From a virus (taxonomy: Duplodnaviria > Heunggongvirae > Uroviricota > Caudoviricetes), in the IMG/VR virus record IMGVR_UViG_2740892258_000019: a stretch of 24,318 nucleotides of DNA; one strand, 5' to 3'. The notes beneath the pieces are model-generated. The model worked only from the letters and a program-made list of their open reading frames with translations, had not been told where the DNA came from and searched no databases. Position 1 is the first letter of the stretch. Every line of letters begins with the position of its first letter. Positions 6,926 to 19,555 of this stretch are shown here, piece after piece. The translations under genes were made by a program, and so were the position numbers.

Positions 6926-7747
6926 TTATCCTCTCAGTTCCTGTTGTGCCAGTGGCTGAAGCGTACCCTGATAGCGGGCCAGGTCGGGACGGTATGCTGC
7001 CCCCGGTGCATAAGACCAGCCGACGTCGGTGGTCACCTTCGTAGTGCCGGTATTAAAGGTGGCCACGTTCCGCATTTCGCCGGTTTTCTCTGAGACCAGT
7101 TTCAGTTCCTGGCCCATGGCAGAGCCGGAGCTGATAACCTTCAGGCCACGGGCACGTACATCCGCCGCACTCAGGGCAATCACACTACAGCGGCAGCGCC
7201 AGCCGTTCGGCGGGTAAAATGCCTGCCAGAACGGGTCATCCCAGCGCAGCACCAGACCATGCAGCGCCAGATGGCTCCTGCGGGTATGGCTGTCGTTGAT
7301 GCCGGTATACATCCAGTACGGCCTGTCGTCGACGTTTTCCATCTGTTCCGCCCAACGACCGGCGCTGTAGAGTACGGACATATTGGTGCGAAAGATGGTA
7401 TCGAGCCGCCACGGACTGCCCTGCTGAATGGTGACCGGCTCACCCGTTACCGGGTCAGTCGTGTCACGTGGTCCCCACCATCCCTTACGCTTCAGCACCG
7501 GCTCCAGCTCCTGCCGGAACCAGCGATCGGTTTTTCCTTCATCGACAGCCTGCTGCAGTGCCCCGCGAATATCTTCCAGAATATCCAGGCGGGTCACTTT
7601 AGCGACGGTAAAGGCGCGGGCATGGGCTTCCTGCCACATTTCTTCCCAGTCCCAGGTAATCTGATACCCTTTGGACTTCAGGTAACTGACTGCCCGCTTC
7701 GGGGGAAGCGTCATGCAGTACGCCAGTTCAGCCGTTGTCACGCTCAT
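6926..7747 (-). CDS. head morphogenesis protein (Mu gpF family)
   Basis: Contains NGWRCRC motif of the Mu F domain; start chosen at internal ATG preceded by GGGGG; track ORF extends to 7774. Confidence 0.7.
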   Translation of the reverse strand: MSVTTAELAYCMTLPPKRAVSYLKSKGYQITWDWEEMWQEAHARAFTVAKVTRLDILEDIRGALQQAVDEGKTDRWFRQELEPVLKRKGWWGPRDTTDPVTGEPVTIQQGSPWRLDTIFRTNMSVLYSAGRWAEQMENVDDRPYWMYTGINDSHTRRSHLALHGLVLRWDDPFWQAFYPPNGWRCRCSVIALSAADVRARGLKVISSGSAMGQELKLVSEKTGEMRNVATFNTGTTKVTTDVGWSYAPGAAYRPDLARYQGTLQPLAQQELRG

Positions 7748-9245
7748 GCAGACGCCCCCAGATATTTGCCACAAAGAGAATGCGGGCCAGCCGTTCCTGC
7801 AGATCGTCCGTGTTCATCTGAGGGTAGAGCTCCGCCAGTTCGCCCAGCAGCTCAGACGGGTTAACCCCGTTTTCGACCCGCTTAAACAGAGGTGCCAGGA
7901 CGGGTTCCAGCGTGCCATTTAACACACCTCCGTTCATCAGAATGTCCAGCGCGTCGTCAAGCTGCTGCTGAGCCTGAATATCGGCATCAATCGCCTCGGC
8001 AAATGACAGCGGCAGCATGTTCTTCTCGCGTTCTGACGGTGGTGTCTCGTCAATATCGCCGTCCTGCAGCTGGTACTCACGCTTGAAGTATTGCGGGGTC
8101 AGACGCAGACCCGCCCGGGTGAGTTTTTCGTCGCGGGTGGCACGGGTGTCATCAATGGCCTCCTGTTCCCACATGGCCCAGACCGGACACGGCACATCGC
8201 CGAAGTTCAGGGTGACCACCGTTCTGATGACCTGATTCACTGCCGCCTGAATGATGTCCGCATCCGCATCGCGGATATCAGCCGTTACCTCCAGCCCGGC
8301 CTGTGCAGAGGCCTTGTTACTGTTCGCTTCCGTGGTCTGATTCTGACCGAGTAATGCAATGGAGATCTCACTGCGTGACAGCGTGATCAGCTCGCGGAAT
8401 ACCTCGCTGCTGTCCGCCTTGCCATCCGCGGCTTTGAGTTCGATGCTGCTGTCATCGGGGATGGCGGCCACCGCGTCCTCCACCATCTGCTCCATGGAGT
8501 CCAGCAGTTTTTCAATCTCTGCATCATTTGCACCCCTCGGGTGCTTACCGATCACCCATGGGGAGCCAAACTTTTCGGCAAAGCGGAGCCAGAATTTCAT
8601 CCCGCCTTTCTTGAAGGCGACCGGCCAGAAGCACATGGACAGGTCAGGGAAACCGTAAGGATTGTCATACGAGGCATCCTGTGCCGGCACCACGAATTTT
8701 GACGGTGACAGCAGCTCACCCTCCACACCCGCATCACGCGCCCGGAAGCGCAGGCAGTTGTCCGTATCAAACTGAAACCACTCAGGCGGTTTGCCGACAA
8801 TATCCGTCACCGCCCACGCCCTGACCGAACGGCCCCACATGATTTCACAGGGCTGATACCCGTAGAGCACGGCATCGCTCATCTCACCGATGATGCGGGA
8901 CAGATCCAGATCGTCGAGCATGTCGCGGATGAAACGGAAGACCCGGGCAGAAGCGTGACCGCGCTCCAGTCCACGCTCCAGTGATTTGAGCGCTGCTTTA
9001 CGTCTGCGGATACAGCCCCCGACCAGCGGGTCGGTGCGCAGTTCGCGGTAGATACGGATATCCCGTCCCTGAGCCTTGAGAATGGGATCAGGGTTGGGCA
9101 GGTACATTCCCAGAGCGTAAAAGTCGATGGCGCGACTGCGCGAGGCAATCTGCGCGGTCAGTGATGCAATCTGCGCGGTCAGTGATTTTTTGGGTTCGGT
9201 GAACGCCACGAACTCATCGGGTGAAACCCAGATACCTTTTGCCAT
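7728..9245 (-). CDS. portal protein (Mu gp29-like, DUF935 family)
   Basis: 505 aa between terminase and F; ATG overlaps the terminase stop (ATGA); carries a 7-aa tandem repeat SLTAQIA x2. Confidence 0.85.
   Translation of the reverse strand: MAKGIWVSPDEFVAFTEPKKSLTAQIASLTAQIASRSRAIDFYALGMYLPNPDPILKAQGRDIRIYRELRTDPLVGGCIRRRKAALKSLERGLERGHASARVFRFIRDMLDDLDLSRIIGEMSDAVLYGYQPCEIMWGRSVRAWAVTDIVGKPPEWFQFDTDNCLRFRARDAGVEGELLSPSKFVVPAQDASYDNPYGFPDLSMCFWPVAFKKGGMKFWLRFAEKFGSPWVIGKHPRGANDAEIEKLLDSMEQMVEDAVAAIPDDSSIELKAADGKADSSEVFRELITLSRSEISIALLGQNQTTEANSNKASAQAGLEVTADIRDADADIIQAAVNQVIRTVVTLNFGDVPCPVWAMWEQEAIDDTRATRDEKLTRAGLRLTPQYFKREYQLQDGDIDETPPSEREKNMLPLSFAEAIDADIQAQQQLDDALDILMNGGVLNGTLEPVLAPLFKRVENGVNPSELLGELAELYPQMNTDDLQERLARILFVANIWGRLHERDNG
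9145..9186. repeat. perfect 21-bp tandem duplication (2 copies) inside portal gene
   Basis: gcaatctgcgcggtcagtgat at 9145-9165 repeated exactly at 9166-9186. Confidence 0.9.
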
Positions 9246-10258
9246 CAGAATCCCTCCAGCATGCGGGCGGCTTCACGGCGGCGGCGCGAACGCGCCACCA
9301 CCGGCCCTGACGGTCCGTCAGTGGCGTTAATAGCCAGAAAACAGGCCCATGTACGGTCGGCGTGACCTGCTGCATCACTTTCCGCCACAAAGCGAGGCGC
9401 TCCGGTAGGTCCGGTGATCTTACGGAGTTTATGCAGATCACTGCGCAGTACCACATCTCCCGCCGGAATACGCAGGCGGCGGTCCTCAAACATCTCCCTG
9501 CCACGGGTCGCGAGGGTGAGCTTGTTCGGGCTGTTAAATATCACCCCCTCCACACGACTCCTGCCGTGGCGCTCCTGAGCATCTTCCACAGGCTTTTCCC
9601 CCATTCCTGTCTGATCCATACAGCAGCGCAGCACGCGATAACGGAAAAATACGTCATCCAGCAAAGCATCCTGCTCAGCAAAGGTGGCCCGTTTACGGGT
9701 GATGATTTCCCGGGTCCAGTAGACATCCCCCACCTGTTCAAGCACCCAGATCACAAACAGGTCATTACGGACAGCAATATCCACCCCCACAAAGCAGGGG
9801 CCACCCGTATAGTGCACCGGCAGTCCGGCAGCATCGTGCTCCACGCCGTCAATCAGTTCAAACGTCAGCCAGGCCGATGCCTCATCCAGCCACTTCAGTT
9901 CAAACTCCTGTGCCCAGGCGTCATCATCGTTGAGCGCCTGTCGCATCTGTGCAATGTCACGCGGAAGGCCGTCGCGCACGGCACGGTAAATATCCACGAT
10001 GTGACGTGACCAGACATTTTCAAGGGCGTTGCTGGTCATCAGTTCATAAAACTTGTTTCCCTTGCCGTTCGGCGTCGATGTCACACGCAGTCTGTAGCCG
10101 TTGGAAATGACCGGAAACAGGGCGGTCCAGATTTTGCGACTGTCGGCATGGAAGGCGAACTCATCCAGAAAGACGTTAGCCGCAAACCCACGTGCCGTGT
10201 CGGGATTTGCCGGCAGGGCCGTGATACGGGAGCCACCGGGTAACTCCACCTCAAGCAT
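9245..10258 (-). CDS. terminase large subunit, apparently 5-prime-truncated (Walker B, TSTPNG and nuclease motifs present; Walker A region absent)
   Basis: 337 aa; VFLDEFAF (Walker B-like) at residues ~28-35, TSTPNGKG motif, nuclease-like GVDIA...D; only 10 nt separate its ATG from the small-terminase stop and there is no SD. Confidence 0.7.
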   Translation of the reverse strand: MLEVELPGGSRITALPANPDTARGFAANVFLDEFAFHADSRKIWTALFPVISNGYRLRVTSTPNGKGNKFYELMTSNALENVWSRHIVDIYRAVRDGLPRDIAQMRQALNDDDAWAQEFELKWLDEASAWLTFELIDGVEHDAAGLPVHYTGGPCFVGVDIAVRNDLFVIWVLEQVGDVYWTREIITRKRATFAEQDALLDDVFFRYRVLRCCMDQTGMGEKPVEDAQERHGRSRVEGVIFNSPNKLTLATRGREMFEDRRLRIPAGDVVLRSDLHKLRKITGPTGAPRFVAESDAAGHADRTWACFLAINATDGPSGPVVARSRRRREAARMLEGF

Positions 10259-10268
10259 GGTGCTGCTG

Positions 10269-10823
10269 TCATGAGATCACCCCGTAAATCTGTTCCCGCA
10301 CCATCTTCAGGGTTTCCAGACTCAGGCGGGTGTCGCCGGACTTCGCCTGTTTTTCCAGAGCATTCATCCGCGCCTCAATTTTTGCCAGCACCTCGGCCCG
10401 GAATCGCTTGTGGGTCACCGAAGCACGTACCAGTGTGGCTATACTTTCCGAAGCAGTGGCCAGCAGTTTTGCGCGTTTTGCAGGGTCATCATTTTCCCCG
10501 ATTTCCTGCAGACGCATCAGAACATCCAGCATCTCGGTCTGAATAAGTGCCATCATCCCGGCAGAACGATCGTCCGCCTCGTCACCGGCTTCCTGTGCCA
10601 TCAGACGCGCGGCCTCGGTGGCGGCGCGGATGCGGGCCAGTTGTCGCTCCATTTTGTAGCCAAACCGCTGCAGGGAAGAGCGGGTGATGACGTATCCCTT
10701 CTCCTTCAGCAGGGCTTCCAGCCGGGCATATCCACTGAAGTTATTCTCCGTCAGTGCCCGCTCCAGCCAGCGGCGGACCTCCGTCGGCAGAGAATCAATG
10801 CTGCTGCGACGTCCCATAATCAC
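10269..10823 (-). CDS. terminase small subunit (Mu gp27-like, DUF3486-type)
   Basis: 184 aa; position between gp26-like gene and large terminase; basic/helical sequence as in Mu gp27. Confidence 0.7.
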   Translation of the reverse strand: MIMGRRSSIDSLPTEVRRWLERALTENNFSGYARLEALLKEKGYVITRSSLQRFGYKMERQLARIRAATEAARLMAQEAGDEADDRSAGMMALIQTEMLDVLMRLQEIGENDDPAKRAKLLATASESIATLVRASVTHKRFRAEVLAKIEARMNALEKQAKSGDTRLSLETLKMVREQIYGVIS

Positions 10824-11457: not shown

Positions 11458-12104
11458 TTCTGTAATCCTTCCCGTTCATCCAGTAACGCGTTTATCTGGT
11501 TCCGCCAGCGACGACATTGTCCTGCGTTGTCGATGATGTTGGCGAGAACGTCACGCTGGGAGACACCCGAATCGCGTAACCGGGTGTCAGTGGTTTCAGG
11601 TTGCCCGGTCGCTGTGCCAGAGCGGGTGCCAGCGGCGGCAACTGAGTCTGAATGACCGGTGTCGACGGATGCGTTGTCATATCCGAGTGCGGCGTTGTAC
11701 TGGCGCACGAAACCGCGAGTAAACACGCACTCAATGGGATGGCTCTTACCTTTTTCATCAATCCAGCGCTGTGTGACATCGTTAATTTGCCCCTGTAGTT
11801 GTTTATTCCGGCTCTCCAGTTGAGCAATCTGCTCAAGATAACCGGCTTCAGCCCGCTGCCCGGCGGCCACCTGCTCCTGATACCGTCTGGCCCAGGCCCG
11901 CAGCGCAGCATTCTCAAGCGTTGCCTGCTCCGTTTTGTACGTGTCGAACGCTGACTGCAACTGACTGAGCGCGGTATCACCGTCACGCTTTGCAGAGTCA
12001 TGACCACTTCTGTATCCCATGGCATACAGGCCGACCAGAAAGGCATTGATAAGAATGGCCAGCAGAATGCCGCGCCACGGCAGCTTTTTAACCAGATGCC
12101 ACAC
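11454..12104 (-). CDS. i-spanin (Rz-like) lysis protein
   Basis: Start re-chosen at GTG preceded by GGGGAGG; N-terminal TM helix (ILLAILINAFLVGLYAM) then coiled-coil periplasmic domain; follows endolysin. Confidence 0.6.
   Translation of the reverse strand: MWHLVKKLPWRGILLAILINAFLVGLYAMGYRSGHDSAKRDGDTALSQLQSAFDTYKTEQATLENAALRAWARRYQEQVAAGQRAEAGYLEQIAQLESRNKQLQGQINDVTQRWIDEKGKSHPIECVFTRGFVRQYNAALGYDNASVDTGHSDSVAAAGTRSGTATGQPETTDTRLRDSGVSQRDVLANIIDNAGQCRRWRNQINALLDEREGLQK
11492..11758 (-). CDS. candidate o-spanin (Rz1-like) embedded in alternate frame of i-spanin gene
   Basis: 88-aa Pro-rich ORF beginning MKKVRAIPLSACLLAVSCAS (signal plus near-lipobox Cys), wholly inside the i-spanin gene. 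Confidence 0.4.
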   Translation of the reverse strand: MKKVRAIPLSACLLAVSCASTTPHSDMTTHPSTPVIQTQLPPLAPALAQRPGNLKPLTPGYAIRVSPSVTFSPTSSTTQDNVVAGGTR

Positions 12105-12603
12105 AACTGCTGCCTCCCCATGTGAGATATCGCGGTGCCAGTTCGCGCAGGATGCGCTGCGGATAATGGCGGTTCTCCCGCCAGCTGGCCGCATTGCGTC
12201 CGGCATTCACCGTGGCGACATGTCCGAACCAGCGGGTGCTGTCCAGCCCCTGCTGCGAGGCCAGCCGTTTGTCCCGCTGTACCCAGCCCAGACCACCGTT
12301 ATAGCCTGACAGCGTCATGGCCATACGCTCGCAGTCACTGGCGGCGCTGACGCGTTGCCACAGCCAGCGGTCATAGCTGACCAGCGCCCGGATGGCCCAC
12401 GCCGGATTAAACGGTTCACGGCTGTTAAGCCCCGGCATCAGCTGACTTATCCAGTCAGCGGTGGTGGGCATAAACTGCGCCAGTCCCTGAGCGCCAGCCG
12501 GCGAGACCGCATCAGGTCGCCAGCCGCTTTCCTGATGCAGCTGCGCGGCGAAGTCGGCCACCGGCGCAGACAGTCCCCATTCAAGCCGGGCATTACGGAT
12601 CAC
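12088..12603 (-). CDS. endolysin catalytic portion (lytic transglycosylase, SLT-like motifs HQESGW / GLAQFMP / YNGG); gene split by upstream 56-bp duplication
   Basis: 171-aa ORF with only a GTG start; reading frame continues upstream into duplicated sequence until a stop created by the duplication. Confidence 0.65.
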   Translation of the reverse strand: MIRNARLEWGLSAPVADFAAQLHQESGWRPDAVSPAGAQGLAQFMPTTADWISQLMPGLNSREPFNPAWAIRALVSYDRWLWQRVSAASDCERMAMTLSGYNGGLGWVQRDKRLASQQGLDSTRWFGHVATVNAGRNAASWRENRHYPQRILRELAPRYLTWGGSSCVASG

Positions 12604-12708
12604 ATCATCGCGATACTGCAGCGCAACCTGCGGAGGCTGCGCTGCGCATGCCGGATCACATCATCGCGATACTGCAGCGCAACCTGCGGAGGCTGCGCTG
12701 CGCATGCC
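12597..12708. repeat. perfect 56-bp tandem duplication (2 copies) at the junction of two endolysin ORF fragments
   Basis: ggatcacatcatcgcgatactgcagcgcaacctgcggaggctgcgctgcgcatgcc at 12597-12652 repeated exactly at 12653-12708. Confidence 0.9.
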
Positions 12709-12884
12709 TGGCTGAAAAAGCCGCCACACCAGAGCAACATTGCGACAAAGAATACCCATGCCATATGAACCAGAAAGGTCCCGGCGCGGACTGACAGGCG
12801 TTCGGTTCTGATGAAGACCCGAAAGGCTTCGAAAGCCAGTTTCAGGGACATGCATACAATCCAGGTGATCTGCGGCCAGTTCAT
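12600..12884 (-). CDS. endolysin N-terminal signal-anchor fragment (frameshifted by 56-bp duplication)
   Basis: 94-aa ORF with hydrophobic MAWVFFVAMLLWCGGFF segment; its ...QPPQVALQYRDDVIR matches the in-frame upstream extension of the catalytic ORF. Confidence 0.45.
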   Translation of the reverse strand: MNWPQITWIVCMSLKLAFEAFRVFIRTERLSVRAGTFLVHMAWVFFVAMLLWCGGFFSQACAAQPPQVALQYRDDVIRHAQRSLRRLRCSIAMM

Positions 12885-13484: not shown

Positions 13485-14255
13485 ATGAAAATGCAGACAT
13501 TACCCATCGTTCCATGGATTGGTGGCAAACGCCGCCTTGCAAAACACATCCTGCCGCTGTTTCCGGCGCATGAATGTTATGTGGAGCCGTTTTGTGGGGC
13601 AGCAGCGCTCTATTTTCTTAAGGTACCCGGCAAGATCGAAGTCATTAATGATATCAACGGTGAGCTGGTGAACCTGTATCGGGTGGTAAAACATCATCTG
13701 GAAGAATTTGTACGCCAGTTCAAATGGGCGCTGGTCAGCCGGCAGATCTACAAATGGCTGCAGATCACCCCGGAAGAAACACTGACGGATATCCAGCGTG
13801 CAGCACGGTTCTACTACCTTCAGAAGCAGGCGTTTGGGGGCAAGGTGGCGGAGCACAGCTTTGGTACCTCCACCATATCCCCGCCACGCTTCAACCTGCT
13901 GCGTATTGAAGAAGAACTGTCAGCGGCACACCTGCGGCTTTCCAGAACGGTCATAGAACACATGGACTGGCAACAGTGCATAGAACGATATGATCGCCCG
14001 CATACGTTGTTCTACTGTGACCCTCCATACTGGGGAACGGAAGGTTATGGTGTGGAGTTCGGACTAGAAAATTATGATCATATGGCAGATTTAGCACGCA
14101 GGATCAAAGGGAAGATGATTATATCGGTGAACGATATCCCGGAAATGCGGCAGGCATTCAACGGTCTAAATATTCAGTCGGTTGATATCAGCTACAACCT
14201 CAAGATCACTGGCAAATCCAGTCGCAAGAAGGAACTCATTATCCTCAACTTTTGA
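13485..14255 (+). CDS. Dam-family N6-adenine DNA methyltransferase (orphan)
   Basis: 256 aa with N-terminal PWIGGKRRL (AdoMet motif) and catalytic DPPY motif (FYCDPPYWG); no adjacent nuclease-like gene recognised. Confidence 0.85.
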   Translation: MKMQTLPIVPWIGGKRRLAKHILPLFPAHECYVEPFCGAAALYFLKVPGKIEVINDINGELVNLYRVVKHHLEEFVRQFKWALVSRQIYKWLQITPEETLTDIQRAARFYYLQKQAFGGKVAEHSFGTSTISPPRFNLLRIEEELSAAHLRLSRTVIEHMDWQQCIERYDRPHTLFYCDPPYWGTEGYGVEFGLENYDHMADLARRIKGKMIISVNDIPEMRQAFNGLNIQSVDISYNLKITGKSSRKKELIILNF

Positions 14256-15450
14256 CCGAATAGTAAGACTTCATGCAGTGAATCAAGTACTGCATGAAGT
14301 CAAGGGCTGGTTTTGTGTACCAAAAATAAACAGTGATAGCGGTAATAATTCCCATAACTAGAACACCACGTATAATCCAGAACGTACGTTTCTGCGTGTC
14401 TAGTCGCGCAGAAATACTGCTAAATACACCAGCCACGTCATCTTTAATGAAGGAATATTCCTTATTAATCTGTTTTTCTTTGTATTCAATTTCTTCGCCT
14501 AAGGCCTTTATAGATTGCATCTGGTTCGAAAGTGCCAGCCAGATTAACGTTGCAGCAAAAATGCATCCCAGAAGAATTATTGTGTTTGTTATCCCTTGGC
14601 CTGACCATTTCGTAGCCACTTTGAATTGGGTAGCTACGATAACAGAGGCAACAGGAATGCCAAGTATATGGTTCTGGATATCTGAAAACGCTTTGTGGAT
14701 TTTACCCATTTCTTCGACTTTTGCAGCACGCAGTTGATCCATTACTTTGTCATAAGAGAATCCAGAAGAGTAGATACGATACCCTTTCAGAAACTTTTCA
14801 TGCAGACGCTGAATATTGTCCAGTAAATAAGCGAATACTAGAGGTGAATCAATTCCATCACTAACTGCTTGAATACTTTCAATCAGAATATCTAGCTTCT
14901 GATCCTTATGGGTATCATCATTGAAACAAGCTATAAGGTTATCAAGATACTCCCTTTGCAAATTTTGTACATTTTCTGCAGCGAAGTGCGGTAATAGCTT
15001 GATAACTTCTTTTTTCAGAAAAACTAACTGACAAGTTGAGTTATCAAAGTAGGCCGCGGCCTCTTTTAGCAGGTTAACGAACTCGAGAATCTTCCGGTAG
15101 TTGCTGATGAAAACGGGGATATCTTCATCATCATTACGAAATTTTGTTTCTAGGATGAAGTAATTAGCTGGCTCAAGGCACTGATGCTTTGGAGCATTTA
15201 GCAATTTTTCATGGGTGGAAAACACAAGTCCCAGTCCACTCCGTGGTGACGTCACACGTAGGATGATCGTGTTACCTGGAGCGATAGTGCCTGTATCAAT
15301 AGAAAGACCATATTCACGAGGATCATCAAGCAAAGTATCAACCAGATCACAATCGGACTGATCTAAGAGCAACAGCGAACCGACACGAAACCCCTCTTGG
15401 AATTCCATACGACGATACAGAGCTGTCAGCATCTCAAATGAAATCGCCAC
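14245..15450 (-). CDS. 401-aa protein with large cytoplasmic N-domain and two C-terminal transmembrane helices; second gene of repressor-linked cargo pair
   Basis: Low-GC ORF; TM segments ITNTIILLGCIFAATLIWLAL and FWIIRGVLVMGIITAITVYFW; 2-bp gap after upstream gene; no known catalytic motif. Confidence 0.7.
   Translation of the reverse strand: MAISFEMLTALYRRMEFQEGFRVGSLLLLDQSDCDLVDTLLDDPREYGLSIDTGTIAPGNTIILRVTSPRSGLGLVFSTHEKLLNAPKHQCLEPANYFILETKFRNDDEDIPVFISNYRKILEFVNLLKEAAAYFDNSTCQLVFLKKEVIKLLPHFAAENVQNLQREYLDNLIACFNDDTHKDQKLDILIESIQAVSDGIDSPLVFAYLLDNIQRLHEKFLKGYRIYSSGFSYDKVMDQLRAAKVEEMGKIHKAFSDIQNHILGIPVASVIVATQFKVATKWSGQGITNTIILLGCIFAATLIWLALSNQMQSIKALGEEIEYKEKQINKEYSFIKDDVAGVFSSISARLDTQKRTFWIIRGVLVMGIITAITVYFWYTKPALDFMQYLIHCMKSYYSVKS
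14268..14300. terminator. 12-bp perfect inverted repeat hairpin at the convergence of dam and the cargo cassette
   Basis: acttcatgcagt-gaatcaagt-actgcatgaagt; no clear U-tract; lies within the last codons of the minus-strand gene. Confidence 0.35.
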
Positions 15451-15452
15451 GA

Positions 15453-16460
15453 TTAAACCTCAGTCATCCACATTTCCCTAAATTCTTCAGGTACATTACG
15501 TAGGGTGATAATATTTGTTTCCGGATCATAATCAATATAGCCTTCAGTTTTCCCTTCCCGGTCAAACTTAAGTTCCCAATATTTAGACTTGCCTTTAAAA
15601 GATACCAGAGCCCGAATGACTCGACCATCAGGAACGAAGCCATCCGATAACTCCAACTCTTCAGCAGCAAGTTTACCAGATAACTCCTCGGGAGCCTGGG
15701 GCCAAATGGCATTAACAAGGGTTTCAAGACTAAGTGGTTCACCAGCCTTACTTAGTGCATGTAAGTGTTCAAACGCACTCTTAAGAAATGCATCTTTTTC
15801 AGCGCCGTCAAGTCCTTTCTCTGCCGCAAATGCTTTTAAAACGTCACGTAACTTTTCAGACTCTCGTTTGGCGATTAAGACATCATTACAGCCTAGGAAC
15901 TGTTTAAAATAGTTTGAAACATTACCTTGCCCCTTAAGAAAACTGATATAGCGCTCTGCGCCACTTTCCCACGCGGTTAAGTCAATGCGCCCAGCCATAC
16001 GCAGCTTAGCAATATCAAGATAGGTACTATCTTGGATGTTAAAATCATCTGTGACAGTGGACCCAATGGTAGCGCTTACAATAGCTATCAACAGGTGTTC
16101 ATTGTGTCCTATCACGATATTTGCAAAAAGAACATAACCACCAGTAGCCATGTTTTCTCGCTGAGAACGTTCCGTCAGGTGATGCATCATTCGGCAGGAA
16201 CTTTGGTAGAAATCATCAACACCTTCGAGAAAGTCCCCAGCCATTCGTTCCATAGGATAGTTATCCGTATCGCCTTCAAAATAGCCATAACCTTTACCTG
16301 TGCGTCCTGCATATTTTGCACAAATATCGTTTATAAGGCGCTGAGAGGCTTCAGTAACTAGACCTTCTTCAGGACTCAATCTCTCAGAAGCGTCTCCATT
16401 TTGTTGTTTGTCTAAAATGTGAACTACAACGTGTTTAACTTCAATGGTCTGCTCAGACAT
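15453..16460 (-). CDS. NdpA/YejK-like nucleoid-associated protein family (NA37-like) homolog; first gene of cargo pair
   Basis: 335 aa (same length as E. coli YejK); N-terminal KHVVVHIL, GKGYGYF, central GGYVLF, IDLTAWE...YISFLKG and C-terminal YDPETNIITL pattern match my recollection of the NdpA family; SD AAGGTGGA upstream. Confidence 0.6.
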   Translation of the reverse strand: MSEQTIEVKHVVVHILDKQQNGDASERLSPEEGLVTEASQRLINDICAKYAGRTGKGYGYFEGDTDNYPMERMAGDFLEGVDDFYQSSCRMMHHLTERSQRENMATGGYVLFANIVIGHNEHLLIAIVSATIGSTVTDDFNIQDSTYLDIAKLRMAGRIDLTAWESGAERYISFLKGQGNVSNYFKQFLGCNDVLIAKRESEKLRDVLKAFAAEKGLDGAEKDAFLKSAFEHLHALSKAGEPLSLETLVNAIWPQAPEELSGKLAAEELELSDGFVPDGRVIRALVSFKGKSKYWELKFDREGKTEGYIDYDPETNIITLRNVPEEFREMWMTEV

Positions 16461-16530
16461 TGGCTATCCACCTTATTTTTTATTGCTTAATGGCAAATAA
16501 TTTCTGCTATATGTTCTCGTTAGGAACACA

Positions 16531-16938
16531 TTAACCCACATTTTTTAACCGCTCAATCGTTGCGGATAATTCCTTCAGTTGTTTTTCCATCTCAATCACA
16601 CGCTGTTTTTCTTCAGCGCCTCGCATGAGATCTCGCCGAACCTCAGGATCTAACTGGTTTAGAAGTTCAAGCATTTTAAGGTCTGACGGGCTGAATTGAT
16701 GTTGTGTTGGTACAGCAACAATTTCTTTAGATGGAATATGTTCTTTACCGGTAAGTAGCCAATCGATTGATACACCCAAATGGGTACTTAGCGCAACAAG
16801 AGCCTCTGCGTTTGGTTCTCTCTCTCCACGCAAATAGTTTTGAAGTGAGCGATATGGAATTTTTGATAAGTCAGATAATGCCTTTATTGTCATGCCATTA
16901 GCATCCATCACTTCACGCAATCTCTCTTTTGTACTCAT
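16531..16938 (-). CDS. prophage repressor, HTH XRE/Cro-CI family
   Basis: Start re-chosen at internal ATG (MSTKERLREVMDANGMTIKALSDLSKIPYRSLQNYLRGER...); divergent from ner; low GC; hydrophobic N-terminal track extension looks non-coding. Confidence 0.75.
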   Translation of the reverse strand: MSTKERLREVMDANGMTIKALSDLSKIPYRSLQNYLRGEREPNAEALVALSTHLGVSIDWLLTGKEHIPSKEIVAVPTQHQFSPSDLKMLELLNQLDPEVRRDLMRGAEEKQRVIEMEKQLKELSATIERLKNVG

Positions 16939-17251: not shown

Positions 17252-18363
17252 ATAAACCAAATACATCAAGCTCAGGTATCCGTATTTTGCGCGTTCTTAA
17301 GGCCTTACGTGGCCACGCTTTGAACGGTGTTTCTAACGGGGAACTAGCGGTTGCACTGCACGAATCACCGGCAAACATCAACGGCAGATTGATGCCTCGC
17401 TCTGCACGCTTTACTACCTGAGCAATGGACACAAAGGGCTGCAGGTGATGGACAGCGCGAAATTCTACAAGAACAAGCCCGCTAACCTTGCCCGTATCGC
17501 CAGTGACCGCGTGTGGAGTTATGAGATTACCGACCATGCCAGCGGCTGGATTTACGTTGAGTATGTGACGGGTGCGGAATCCGGTGAGAACCTGTGTTCT
17601 GTGCTTATCAACGCCATGCAGGAGCGTGGCGGCGCAGACGTGCTGCACGGCGTGCCAAAAATACTCTATCTCGACCCCGGCTCGGCAAACACCGCGGGTA
17701 TGACGAAAAACATGTGCCGCTCACTGGGCATTGACCTGATAGCGCACAAGCCGCATAACGCCCGCGCCACCGGACAGGTGGAAAAGGCGCGGGACATTAT
17801 CGAACGCAAGCTGGAGCCGGGTCTGAAGTTCCGGCCGGTTCACAGTCTGGAAGAACTCAACGCGCTGGCCGCGAAATGGCGCAGCCACTTTAACGCCACG
17901 GCTGTTCACAGCCGCCACGGTAAAACCCGCACGGATATCTGGCTGAAGATTACTGCTGAGCAGCTGAAAAAAGCGCCTTCCGTTGAGGTATGTGGTTACC
18001 GGTACAGACAACGCCGCAGATGCAGCCGCCGCACGCAAGGCGAAGGCGCTGCCGTTCGGCGGGCGGCTTGACCCGTATAAACATATCGACGACACCACAC
18101 TTCCGGCCTATATGCCGAAGCGTGGTCAGGCCTCTGACGTACGCGGGCCGCGCACTGAACAACGTCCCATGACTCATGTGGAGGCCGCGAAAGCCCTGCG
18201 CGATAAGTTCAGCGCCGACGGCCTTACCTGGACGCCGGAACATTACCGCCAGTTAACGGCACAGTACCCGGACGGCGTACCGGAAGCCGCACTGGATGAA
18301 GTCATGGCCACGCTGACCACACCGGCCAGCAGCAGTGTTATCAGCATTGTTAACGGCAACTGA
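17248..18363 (+). pseudogene. Mu-type DDE transposase A, disrupted: 57-codon N-terminal fragment, DDE-core ORF and C-terminal ORF in three different frames
   Basis: Strong SD AAGGAGG + ATG at 17248 but stop after 57 codons; DDE-core motifs restart at 17445 in another frame; frame changes again near 17985-18000; locus codes at most ~370 aa vs ~660 for MuA. Confidence 0.6.
17445..18071 (+). CDS. DDE transposase catalytic-core fragment (rve-like: ITDHAS ... LYLDPGSANT ... GQVEKARD)
   Basis: 208-aa ORF with D, D, E-containing motifs at the spacing expected of Mu-type transposase cores; ends in Arg-rich out-of-frame tail. Confidence 0.5.
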   Translation: MMDSAKFYKNKPANLARIASDRVWSYEITDHASGWIYVEYVTGAESGENLCSVLINAMQERGGADVLHGVPKILYLDPGSANTAGMTKNMCRSLGIDLIAHKPHNARATGQVEKARDIIERKLEPGLKFRPVHSLEELNALAAKWRSHFNATAVHSRHGKTRTDIWLKITAEQLKKAPSVEVCGYRYRQRRRCSRRTQGEGAAVRRAA

Positions 18364-18373
18364 GGAGGGAAAC

Positions 18374-19555
18374 ATGCTGGTACTGAAGCAGCAACTGAAA
18401 GAGGCCCGTATTCCACAGGCGGTGGTGGCGAGAGCTGTCGATGTTTCTGAGGCCACGCTGGCCCAGATTGTGAATCATAACGCGTGGCCCCGCACCAGCC
18501 CCGGAGAAGTGCGCCGGCGTCTTGCGTCCTGGCTGGAAAGTCAGGGGATTGATACAACGAAGAGTTTTGATGCTGTACAGGGCGCGGCCACGCCCCGTAC
18601 AGCGGGTACCACAGATAAAACGAGCCTCAGTGAGGAAGAGAATATGTTACTCAAAAAACAGGTGTTATTTCCAGCAACCAAAAAAGCGTTTGGTCTTTTC
18701 CGTGACCCGTTCGCCGACGAAGCCATGCAGGGTTCTGATGATGTGTTCACCACCCCGGATATTCGCTACGTGCGTGAGGCGTTGTACCAGACAGCCCGTC
18801 ATGGTGGGTTTATGGCCGTCATCGGTGAGTCCGGTGCGGGTAAATCCACGCTGCGCCGCGACCTGACTGAACGTATCAACCGCGAGAATGCGCCGGTAAT
18901 TGTTATCGAGCCATACATCATCGCTATGGAAGACAACGATGTGAAAGGGAAAACCCTGAAGGCAGCAGCGATTGCCGAAGCCATTATCAGTACCATCGCA
19001 CCACTGGAAAGCATCAGACGCAGTCAGGACGCCCGCTTTCGCCAGTTGCATCGCGTCCTGAAAGACAGCAGCCAGGCGGGGTTCAGCCACGTTCTGGTGA
19101 TTGAGGAGGCCCACAGTCTGCCCATTCCGACACTGAAACACCTCAAACGGAAACACCTCAAACGCTTTTTTGAGCTGGAGTCCGGTTTCAAAAAACTGCT
19201 GTCCATCGTGCTGATTGGCCAGCCGGAACTGGCGACAAAACTGTCTGAACGCAATATGGAAGTCCGTGAAGTCGTTCAGCGCTGTGAGGTGGTCGAACTT
19301 CTGCCTCTGGACAATAACCTTGAAGAGTTTCTGACGTTCAAACTGCAACGGGCCGGTAAACAACTGACGGACATTATGGACGCCAGCGCAGTGGATGCCA
19401 TACGTGCCCGCCTGAGCAATCCGGGAAGTCATCGTAAAAATATGGTCAGCCTGCTGTATCCGCTGGCCGTCAGTAACCTGGTAATAGCCGCCATGAATCT
19501 GGCCGCTGAAATCGGGGTTCCACAGGTCAACGCTGACGTTGTCAAAGGGGTTTAA
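18374..19555 (+). CDS. Mu B-like transposition ATPase (AAA+; Walker A GESGAGKST, Walker B VLVIEEAH)
   Basis: Start at ATG after GAGGAGGG; 393 aa; contains 5-aa tandem repeat KHLKR x2. Confidence 0.8.
   Translation: MLVLKQQLKEARIPQAVVARAVDVSEATLAQIVNHNAWPRTSPGEVRRRLASWLESQGIDTTKSFDAVQGAATPRTAGTTDKTSLSEEENMLLKKQVLFPATKKAFGLFRDPFADEAMQGSDDVFTTPDIRYVREALYQTARHGGFMAVIGESGAGKSTLRRDLTERINRENAPVIVIEPYIIAMEDNDVKGKTLKAAAIAEAIISTIAPLESIRRSQDARFRQLHRVLKDSSQAGFSHVLVIEEAHSLPIPTLKHLKRKHLKRFFELESGFKKLLSIVLIGQPELATKLSERNMEVREVVQRCEVVELLPLDNNLEEFLTFKLQRAGKQLTDIMDASAVDAIRARLSNPGSHRKNMVSLLYPLAVSNLVIAAMNLAAEIGVPQVNADVVKGV
19135..19164. repeat. perfect 15-bp tandem duplication (2 copies), in frame, inside B gene
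   Basis: gaaacacctcaaacg at 19135-19149 repeated exactly at 19150-19164. Confidence 0.9.

What the first reader, a model, noticed from the sequence alone, without database searches (positions are those of the whole stretch)
9245..10271. Large terminase appears N-terminally truncated (Walker A ATPase segment missing)
The large-terminase ORF is only 337 aa and begins ~28 residues before the Walker-B-like VFLDEFAF motif. In terminases the Walker A P-loop normally lies ~90-100 residues upstream of Walker B. Only 10 nt with no SD separate its ATG from the small-terminase stop, and an in-frame stop lies just upstream. An internal deletion of roughly 0.3-0.5 kb would explain this and would abolish DNA packaging.
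Basis: partly seen in the sequence, partly recalled or inferred. Interest (0 to 1): 0.55.

Follow-up and report, generated by a model that had tools for sequence, protein, structure and literature searches.

The report
Truncated terminase: probable draft-assembly artefact
The phage DNA-packaging gene really is missing its first 289 bases in this sequence, but the loss is one of seven clean gaps and duplications in an otherwise letter-perfect draft contig, so it most likely reflects how the draft was stitched together, not the bacterium.

Summary
The large-terminase ORF (window 9245-10258, minus strand, 337 aa) lacks the first 101 residues of the 438-aa protein found in identical E. coli Mu-like prophages. 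The missing part includes the Walker A loop FARQTGKT. The cause is a clean 289-bp, frame-shifting deletion at window 10262, just after codon 3.

The window is contig CVOH01000150.1 of the E. coli K1 A192PP draft genome. Against a prophage that is otherwise 100% identical, it shows 0 substitutions but six structural lesions: deletions of 289, 1568 and 320 bp, and perfect tandem duplications of 21, 56 and 15 bp. A seventh lesion, a 160-bp deletion, splits the chromosomal gene ydcJ just outside the prophage. All junctions have 0-1 nt of microhomology.

The protein created by this prophage's unique insertion in gapC occurs on 8 public contigs. Each of eight lesion-specific proteins occurs on only one, this contig.

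Best explanation (about 85%): neighbouring contigs were joined without regard to overlaps or gaps. A genuine deletion giving a packaging-dead prophage is about 10% likely. Either way the finding is ordinary. Checking the reads or a PCR would settle it.

The parts
9245..10258 (-). Truncated large-terminase ORF, 337 aa. It equals residues 102-438 of the intact 438-aa TerL. It keeps Walker B (VFLDEF, residues 29-34) and the whole RNase H-like nuclease domain, and lacks Walker A.
   Evidence: Its closest relatives among solved structures are T4/RB49 gp17.
10262..10263 (.). Junction of the 289-bp deletion. There is 1 nt of microhomology (G at 10262). On the minus strand the sequence reads ATGACAGCAG|CACCATGCTT.
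   Evidence: Alignment A1 and junction analysis against NZ_CM138826.1.
10081..10272 (-). Remnant reading frame from the native TerL start codon. The ATG at 10272..10270 overlaps the gp27 stop as ATGA. After 3 native codons it is frame-shifted by the deletion and ends after 63 aa. It has no Pfam match.
10269..10823 (-). Mu gp27-like small terminase (DUF3486). It is intact and 100% identical to the reference.
   Evidence: Pfam PF11985, E=3.7e-44.
7728..9245 (-). Mu-type portal (DUF935). It is 505 aa instead of 498 because of a perfect 21-bp tandem duplication at 9145-9165 (SLTAQIA repeated).
   Evidence: The 505-aa product is on 1 contig only.
12597..12708 (.). Perfect 56-bp tandem duplication (two copies). 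It frame-shifts the SLT endolysin gene into 83-aa and 171-aa pieces.
17382..17383 (.). Junction of a blunt 1568-bp deletion with 0 nt of microhomology. It removes the 3' part of the Ner-like HTH gene, the DUF3102 gene and the 5' part of the MuA-like transposase gene.
17993..17994 (.). Junction of a 320-bp deletion (1 nt of microhomology) inside the transposase gene.
19135..19149 (.). Perfect 15-bp tandem duplication (GAAACACCTCAAACG) in the MuB-like AAA gene, giving 393 aa instead of 388.

Best explanation
The 289-bp gap that truncates the large terminase is most likely an artefact of how the E. coli A192PP draft (GCA_001245225.1, contig CVOH01000150.1; window = contig positions 60-24377) was built, not a mutation in the prophage.

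Inferred mechanism: the deposited 'contig' is a chain of about eight primary short-read contigs of 0.6-9 kb that were joined end to end.
- Where two neighbours overlapped by fewer bases than the assembler could merge, the overlap was written twice. This gives the perfect tandem duplications of 15, 21 and 56 bp.
- Where a stretch between neighbours was not assembled, the gap was closed or its Ns were dropped. This gives the blunt deletions of 160, 289, 320 and 1568 bp.

One such join falls 10 nt into the TerL gene. The ORF finder then starts at the next in-frame ATG (Met102).

Shown: the lesion pattern, the absence of substitutions, a lesion outside the prophage, and the privacy of all lesions to this one contig. 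Inferred: the joining procedure itself, because the assembly methods paper for A192PP is not held.

In the living strain the gene is expected to be the ordinary 438-aa T4-gp17-type terminase, translationally coupled to gp27 through an ATGA overlap.
For: 1. Against the prophage of E. coli GIMC1410:G-002-25, the 24,318-base window has 0 substitutions but six structural differences. These are deletions of 289, 1568 and 320 bp and perfect tandem duplications of 21, 56 and 15 bp.
2. The next 5 kb of the same contig is chromosomal DNA. It is 100% identical to ATCC 11775, NU14 and other strains, except for a blunt 160-bp deletion that splits ydcJ/hglS. The lesions are therefore not specific to the prophage.
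3. All seven junctions have 0-1 nt of microhomology, as expected for arbitrary joins.
4. Natural relatives show the opposite pattern. M-17 versus GIMC1410 has 11 SNPs and 0 indels in 8.5 kb. Other family members differ by 1-4% substitutions.
5. The prophage sits in gapC in this strain, a junction found in 0 of 5,426 complete E. coli genomes. The 169-aa GapC-prophage fusion product is nevertheless recorded on 8 contigs from NCBI and Logan, the longest 60,282 bp. Each of eight lesion-specific products (TerL-337, portal-505, SLT-171, SLT-83, Tnp-207, HTH-57, MuB-393, YdcJ-171) is recorded on 1 contig, the 57,681-bp CVOH contig. Intact proteins of the window are on 493 to more than 1000 contigs.
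6. Several read sets of this lineage are public (A192, A192P, A192PP and four A192PP mutants). The authors found no structural variants between A192 and A192PP. The sister draft of A192 was a fragmented Velvet assembly of Nextera XT MiSeq reads: 627 contigs, 5.52 Mb, 5,668 CDS (PMC5115809).
7. A later comparison found unusually low shared-protein fractions with A192PP, 80-83% versus 87-90% for IHE3034. This fits a CDS count inflated by split genes (PMC5054322).
8. Adding back the net 2,245 bp lost in the part examined gives about 59.9 kb, close to the 60,282-bp contig that carries the same gapC fusion. This is a weak inference.
Against: - The absence of the lesions from them is therefore inferred from contig counts, not seen in sequence.
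- I assume, but cannot show, that those contigs come from the A192 lineage.
- The assembly method of A192PP itself (McCarthy et al. 2015) is not in the library.
- Only one lesion was found in the 5 kb of chromosomal flank available, and ydcJ is not essential.
- There are no Ns or other scaffold marks in the contig.
- Prophage inactivation by deletions in the terminase, transposase and lysis genes is a common natural outcome.
Confidence: 0.85

Rival explanations
1. The deletion is genuine. In strain A192PP, or its ancestor A192, the Mu-like prophage in gapC lost 289 bp of the TerL gene. Ribosomes starting at the native ATG make a 63-aa frame-shifted peptide. At most a little Walker-A-less TerL(102-438) is made by re-initiation at Met102. 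Without the P-loop the motor cannot hydrolyse ATP, so no DNA is packaged. With the transposase and endolysin lesions as well, the prophage is a dead remnant.
For: - The sequence as deposited has the deletion.
- The other lesions also hit key phage functions: transposase twice and the SLT endolysin. This is what decay of a prophage looks like.
- Homology-independent deletions do occur in E. coli.
- The loss of function follows from the missing Terminase_6N positions 1-72 and from the known requirement for Walker A in T4 gp17-type terminases (established knowledge).
Against: - There are 0 substitutions alongside 7 structural changes in 29.6 kb. This is the reverse of the natural spectrum seen among relatives.
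- Three of the seven lesions are short perfect tandem duplications, two of them in frame and harmless. One lesion is in a chromosomal gene.
- No lesion-specific protein occurs on any other contig, although 8 contigs carry the same rare insertion.
- The authors found no structural variants in this lineage by read mapping (PMC5115809).
- Extrapolated genome-wide, about one lesion per 4 kb would disrupt roughly a thousand genes, which is not compatible with a virulent, fast-growing strain (inference).
Confidence: 0.1
2. The gene is intact in the cell, but the missing 5' segment lies on another contig or elsewhere in the genome. That would mean a split or rearranged gene, or a repeat shared with a second Mu-like prophage that the assembler collapsed and skipped.
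For: - Many E. coli genomes carry more than one related prophage of this family, with up to 6 matching places per genome.
- An unrelated short-read contig (Logan SRR30310103_1580) happens to start 2 nt from the same site.
Against: - Neither the 289-bp segment nor its 101-aa translation is found anywhere in the 29.6 kb of the contig that could be read.
- The chromosomal ydcJ deletion cannot be explained by a prophage repeat.
- The Logan coincidence is expected from the search criterion. Only a contig starting 0-2 nt before that ATG can yield exactly this 337-aa product.
- This reading is a variant of the artefact explanation, not a biological alternative.
Confidence: 0.04
3. The 337-aa protein is a natural short form: a terminase family that starts at this position, or a domesticated nuclease-only protein.
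For: The ORF is open and its nuclease domain is complete.
Against: - All homologues examined are 435-486 aa and align about 100 residues further N-terminal, with a Walker A motif.
- In its 90%-identity cluster the full-length 438-aa forms are on hundreds of contigs, while the 337-aa form is on one.
- The native start codon and the first three codons are still present upstream and out of frame, the signature of a deletion.
Confidence: 0.01

Closest known systems
Intact large terminase of the same E. coli Mu-like prophage (WP_000122980.1, 438 aa; strains M-17, GIMC1410:G-002-25, N61, KE50)
   Same: 100% identical over residues 102-438. Same neighbours (gp27/DUF3486 upstream, DUF935 portal downstream). 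Same native start codon and ATGA overlap with gp27.
   Different: The window lacks 289 bp (codon 4 to part of codon 100), so residues 1-101 and Walker A FARQTGKT are not encoded in frame.
Phage T4 / RB49 gp17 large terminase (PDB 3cpe, 2o0h, 3ezk)
   Same: Best solved-structure relatives. Residues 104-197 of the intact protein align to gp17 250-345, including Walker B and the coupling motif. Pfam Terminase_6N and 6C are the T4-type families. The Walker A sequence ARQTGKT resembles gp17 SRQLGKT (from memory, not tested here).
   Different: Much shorter protein (438 vs 610 aa) and low overall identity. The window copy has no P-loop at all.
Phage Mu gp28 and the B3 ORF31 / Pasteurella phage AFS-2018a large terminases
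   Same: Same gene order gp26-gp27-gp28-gp29 in transposable phages. 35% identity to B3 and 68-69% to AFS-2018a over the retained part.
   Different: Those proteins are full length (486 and 435 aa). Mu gp28 itself was not aligned here.
Scaffold-join errors in short-read draft assemblies (overlapping contig ends written twice; gaps closed without sequence)
   Same: Perfect short tandem duplications and blunt deletions at intervals of 0.6-9 kb, with no substitutions. Lesions occur inside and outside the prophage and are absent from other data sets of the same insertion.
   Different: No Ns or other scaffold marks remain. The joining software for this assembly is unknown to me, so the resemblance is inferred from my own knowledge of assemblers and was not tested.

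Membership tests
T4 gp17-type large terminase (Pfam Terminase_6N + Terminase_6C) | N-terminal ATPase domain with a Walker A P-loop (G/A-x4-GK-T/S) | tested here: not met
   The window ORF matches Terminase_6N only from profile position 73 and has no GKT/GKS motif. The intact orthologue has FARQTGKT at residues 26-33 and matches profile positions 2-212.
T4 gp17-type large terminase (Pfam Terminase_6N + Terminase_6C) | Walker B (hydrophobic run followed by DE) and the downstream coupling motif | tested here: met
   NVFLDEF at residues 28-34 aligns to gp17 MIYIDE. STPNG aligns to gp17 TTTPNG.
T4 gp17-type large terminase (Pfam Terminase_6N + Terminase_6C) | C-terminal RNase H-like nuclease domain | tested here: met
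   PF17289, E=1.3e-27, profile positions 1-154 of 155, residues 157-312.
T4 gp17-type large terminase (Pfam Terminase_6N + Terminase_6C) | Position between the small-terminase and portal genes | tested here: met
   gp27/DUF3486 at 10269-10823 and the DUF935 portal at 7728-9245, all on the minus strand.
Mu-like transposable prophage | DDE transposase, MuB-like ATPase, Gam, GemA, Mor, gp27-gp28-gp29-F head module, insertion at a non-specific chromosomal site | tested here: met
   Gene calls and Pfam families. Insertion sites differ in every genome examined; here it is gapC. The transposase and neighbouring genes carry lesions in this contig.
Assembly (contig-join) artefact | Lesions are not confined to the element and are not accompanied by substitutions | tested here: met
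   0 SNPs and 6 lesions in 24.3 kb of prophage. 0 SNPs and 1 lesion in 5 kb of chromosome.
Assembly (contig-join) artefact | Junctions are blunt or arbitrary; duplications are perfect, tandem and shorter than a read or k-mer | tested here: met
   Microhomology of 0-1 nt at all junctions. Duplications of 15, 21 and 56 bp are exact.
Assembly (contig-join) artefact | Lesions are absent from independent assemblies or reads of the same strain | tested here: inconclusive
   By contig counts only. The gapC fusion product is on 8 contigs and each lesion-specific product on 1. The other contigs could not be fetched and their strain identity is inferred from the rarity of the insertion.
Assembly (contig-join) artefact | Read depth and read pairs contradict the joins | not testable with these tools
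   There is no access to raw reads (PRJEB9141, PRJEB14305, PRJEB16318).

The most novel reading that the evidence does not exclude
The lesions are real. A192PP then carries a Mu-like prophage whose terminase has lost its ATPase P-loop but keeps an intact nuclease domain. This protein would be made by re-initiation 10 nt after the gp27 stop. It would poison or cut the packaging complexes of related superinfecting Mu-like phages, acting as a dominant-negative terminase used as defence. The strain would also have undergone an unusual burst of homology-independent deletions and tandem duplications.
Probability: 0.02. Interest if true: 0.5.

Novelty: not a real feature. Interest (0 to 1): 0.07.

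Why it matters
The finding matters mainly as a caution. The A192PP draft (CVOH00000000) has been used as a reference for transposon-insertion sequencing and for comparative genomics (PMC5847654, PMC5054322). If joins like these recur about every 4 kb, then gene truncations, 'pseudogenes' and essentiality calls based on it need re-checking.

For phage biology there is nothing new. If the deletion were real, it would be one more defective prophage with a textbook loss-of-function lesion in the packaging ATPase.

Tried and rejected
- **Deletion in other genomes.** All 20 complete E. coli genomes that hold this TerL region at 95-99% identity have the full 2,469-bp version. No phage record is closely related at the DNA level.
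- **Exact 337-aa protein in public assemblies.** It was found only in the source contig and in one Logan contig that merely begins 2 nt before the ATG, a contig-end effect.
- **Independent assemblies of the same strain.**
  - The last prophage gene (53 aa) is in 15,839 blocks of the collection, so only unrelated long contigs were returned.
  - Ten intact window proteins are all on 493 or more contigs, too common to isolate the lineage.
  - The gapC fusion protein P0001 may not be looked up.
- **Complete genome with the same gapC insertion.** None exists among 5,426.
- **A192PP assembly methods paper (PMC4534652).** It is not held.
- **Missing segment elsewhere.** No hit in the 29.6 kb of the contig available, by blastn or tblastn.
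- **Base composition of the deleted segments.** GC is 0.55-0.57 versus 0.54 overall, which is unremarkable.
- **Natural short isoform.** Rejected: homologues are 435-486 aa and the native start remnant is still present.
- **Not used.** The large protein-database searches, structure prediction and fold search were not run. The family assignment was already unambiguous from Pfam and PDB sequence matches.
Full report
**1. The observation**

The finding concerns the minus strand. The ORF at 9245..10258 encodes 337 aa starting MLEVELPGGSRITALPANPDTARGFAANVFLDEFAFH. It lies between a Mu gp27-type small terminase (10269..10823; PF11985, E=3.7e-44) and a Mu-type portal (7728..9245; PF06074, E=2.9e-90), followed by a Mu F-like head protein.

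Pfam places the ORF in the T4-type large-terminase families. The ATPase domain (Terminase_6N) is matched only from profile position 73 of 215, beginning at residue 6. The nuclease domain (Terminase_6C) is complete.

Ten nucleotides without a Shine-Dalgarno motif separate the gp27 stop from the ATG, and an in-frame TGA lies 21 nt upstream.

**2. What is missing**

Twenty complete E. coli genomes carry this region at 95-99% identity, and in all of them it is 268 bp longer. In strain M-17 the gene is 438 aa. It starts with an ATG that overlaps the gp27 stop (ATGA) and has Walker A FARQTGKT at residues 26-33 and Walker B NVFLDE about 100 residues later. Terminase_6N is matched at 2-212/215.

The DNA alignment shows one clean 289-bp gap in the window, directly after ATGACAGCAG. 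The 268-bp net difference is 289 minus a 21-bp duplication in the portal gene.

The native start codon survives at 10272..10270 and now opens a frame-shifted 63-aa ORF (10081..10272). The 337-aa ORF begins at what is Met102 of the intact protein.

Homologues in isolated transposable phages are 435 aa (Pasteurella phage AFS-2018a, 69% identity) and 486 aa (Pseudomonas phage B3, 35%). Both extend about 100 residues further N-terminal. The nearest solved structures are T4 and RB49 gp17. The 'natural short form' reading is therefore excluded.

**3. The surroundings change the interpretation**

The whole window matches the prophage of E. coli GIMC1410:G-002-25 over 26,403 bases in five pieces. Base-by-base comparison gives 0 substitutions and six structural differences:

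| Lesion | Window position | Gene affected |
|---|---|---|
| Perfect 21-bp tandem duplication | 9145-9165 | portal, in frame |
| 289-bp deletion | 10262 | TerL |
| Perfect 56-bp tandem duplication | 12597-12708 | SLT endolysin, frame-shifted |
| Blunt 1568-bp deletion | 17382/17383 | Ner-like gene, DUF3102, 5' part of transposase |
| 320-bp deletion | 17993 | transposase |
| Perfect 15-bp tandem duplication | 19135-19149 | MuB-like gene, in frame |

Every junction has 0-1 nt of microhomology. Natural relatives differ in the opposite way. M-17 versus GIMC1410 shows 11 substitutions and no indel in 8.5 kb, and other family members differ by 1-4% substitutions.

**4. Source of the window**

The exact 337-aa product is recorded in GCA_001245225.1, contig CVOH01000150.1 (57,681 bp). 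The window is positions 60-24377 of that contig. CVOH00000000 is the draft genome of E. coli K1 strain A192PP (PMC5054322).

In this strain the prophage is inserted in gapC. No other of 5,426 complete genomes has this junction.

The 5 kb of chromosome next to the prophage is 100% identical to ATCC 11775, NU14 and many other B2 strains. The exception is a blunt 160-bp deletion that splits ydcJ/hglS. The lesion style therefore continues outside the prophage, at about one lesion per 4 kb.

**5. Are the lesions seen anywhere else?**

Exact-sequence look-ups give these counts:
- The 169-aa GapC fragment, whose last codons are read from the prophage end and which marks this insertion, is on 8 contigs from NCBI and Logan. 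The longest is 60,282 bp.
- Each of eight lesion-specific products (TerL-337, portal-505, SLT-171, SLT-83, transposase-207, HTH-57, MuB-393, YdcJ-171) is on a single contig of 57,681 bp, the CVOH contig.
- Intact proteins of the window are on 493 to more than 1000 contigs.

Public read sets exist for A192, A192P, A192PP and four A192PP mutants. The authors reported no structural variants in the lineage. The sister draft of A192 was a fragmented Velvet assembly of Nextera XT MiSeq data (PMC5115809).

The simplest reading is that the other seven contigs are independent assemblies of this lineage and that they lack all the lesions. I could not fetch them to look, so this step rests on counts.

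**6. Best explanation (about 85%)**

The deposited contig is a chain of primary contigs (pieces of 9.2, 1.1, 2.4, 4.7, 0.6, 1.1 and 9.3 kb) joined without regard to overlaps or gaps.
- Overlapping ends written twice give perfect short tandem duplications.
- Unassembled stretches closed without sequence give blunt deletions.

The TerL 'truncation' is one such join. The joining procedure itself is inferred from my own knowledge of short-read scaffolding, because the methods paper is not held.

**7. Rivals**

- **A genuine deletion (about 10%).** It would make the prophage unable to package DNA, since the P-loop is indispensable in gp17-type terminases (established knowledge). The pattern of 7 structural changes with 0 substitutions, the harmless in-frame duplications, the chromosomal lesion and the privacy of all lesions argue against it.
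- **The missing segment lies elsewhere, or a collapsed repeat was skipped (about 4%).** It was not found in the 29.6 kb available, and this reading does not explain ydcJ.
- **A natural short form (about 1%).** Excluded by the homologues and by the remnant of the native start.

**8. Comparison and verdict**

The gene belongs to the T4 gp17-type (Terminase_6N/6C) terminases of Mu-like phages. As written in this window it fails the Walker A criterion, while Walker B, the nuclease domain and the gene context are met.

Nothing here is new biology. The biological conclusion is probably not correct. Read mapping or a single PCR would settle it. Interest is low. The useful message is a warning about this draft assembly.

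Noticed in passing
window 9145-9165 (portal gene 7728-9245, minus strand): Perfect 21-bp tandem duplication (GCAATCTGCGCGGTCAGTGAT) adds SLTAQIA to the portal N-terminus, giving 505 aa instead of 498. The 505-aa form is on one public contig only. An otherwise identical Logan contig (L006) lacks the duplication.
   Followed up: yes
window 12597-12708 (SLT endolysin; ORFs 12088-12603 and 12600-12851, minus strand): Perfect 56-bp tandem duplication frame-shifts the transglycosylase/endolysin gene into 83-aa and 171-aa pieces. Both pieces are private to this contig.
   Followed up: yes
window 17382/17383 and 17993: Two blunt deletions of 1568 bp and 320 bp remove most of the Ner-like gene, DUF3102 and large parts of the MuA-like DDE transposase. 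They leave 57-, 207- and 83-aa fragments with a retained 611-bp island between them.
   Followed up: yes
window 19135-19149 (MuB-like AAA gene 18374-19555, plus strand): Perfect 15-bp tandem duplication (GAAACACCTCAAACG) adds five residues, giving 393 aa instead of 388. It is private to this contig.
   Followed up: yes
L007 20085/20086 (same contig, about 4.1 kb beyond the window end): Blunt 160-bp deletion with 0 nt of microhomology splits the chromosomal gene ydcJ/hglS. The flank is otherwise 100% identical to many B2 strains.
   Followed up: yes
L007 about 16130-16145 (about 190 nt beyond the window end): The Mu-like prophage is inserted in gapC. This produces a 169-aa GapC fragment that reads into the prophage end. 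The junction is absent from 5,426 complete E. coli genomes, and other members of the prophage family sit at a different site in every genome examined.
   Followed up: partly
window 14245-16938 (minus strand): Between the Dam methylase gene and the early operon, this prophage carries a 401-aa hypothetical protein, a 335-aa NA37 nucleoid-associated protein and a 135-aa HTH repressor. Ten other members of the family (L009-L018) lack the first two and have different repressors (112-152 aa), so this looks like a variable cargo/immunity region.
   Followed up: no
L006 position 1 (Logan SRR30310103_1580), equivalent to window 10260: An unrelated short-read contig, 100% identical to the window apart from the 21-bp duplication, begins 2 nt from the TerL deletion junction. 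This is probably a selection effect of searching for the exact 337-aa product. A repeat or mosaic boundary at this site was not excluded.
   Followed up: partly
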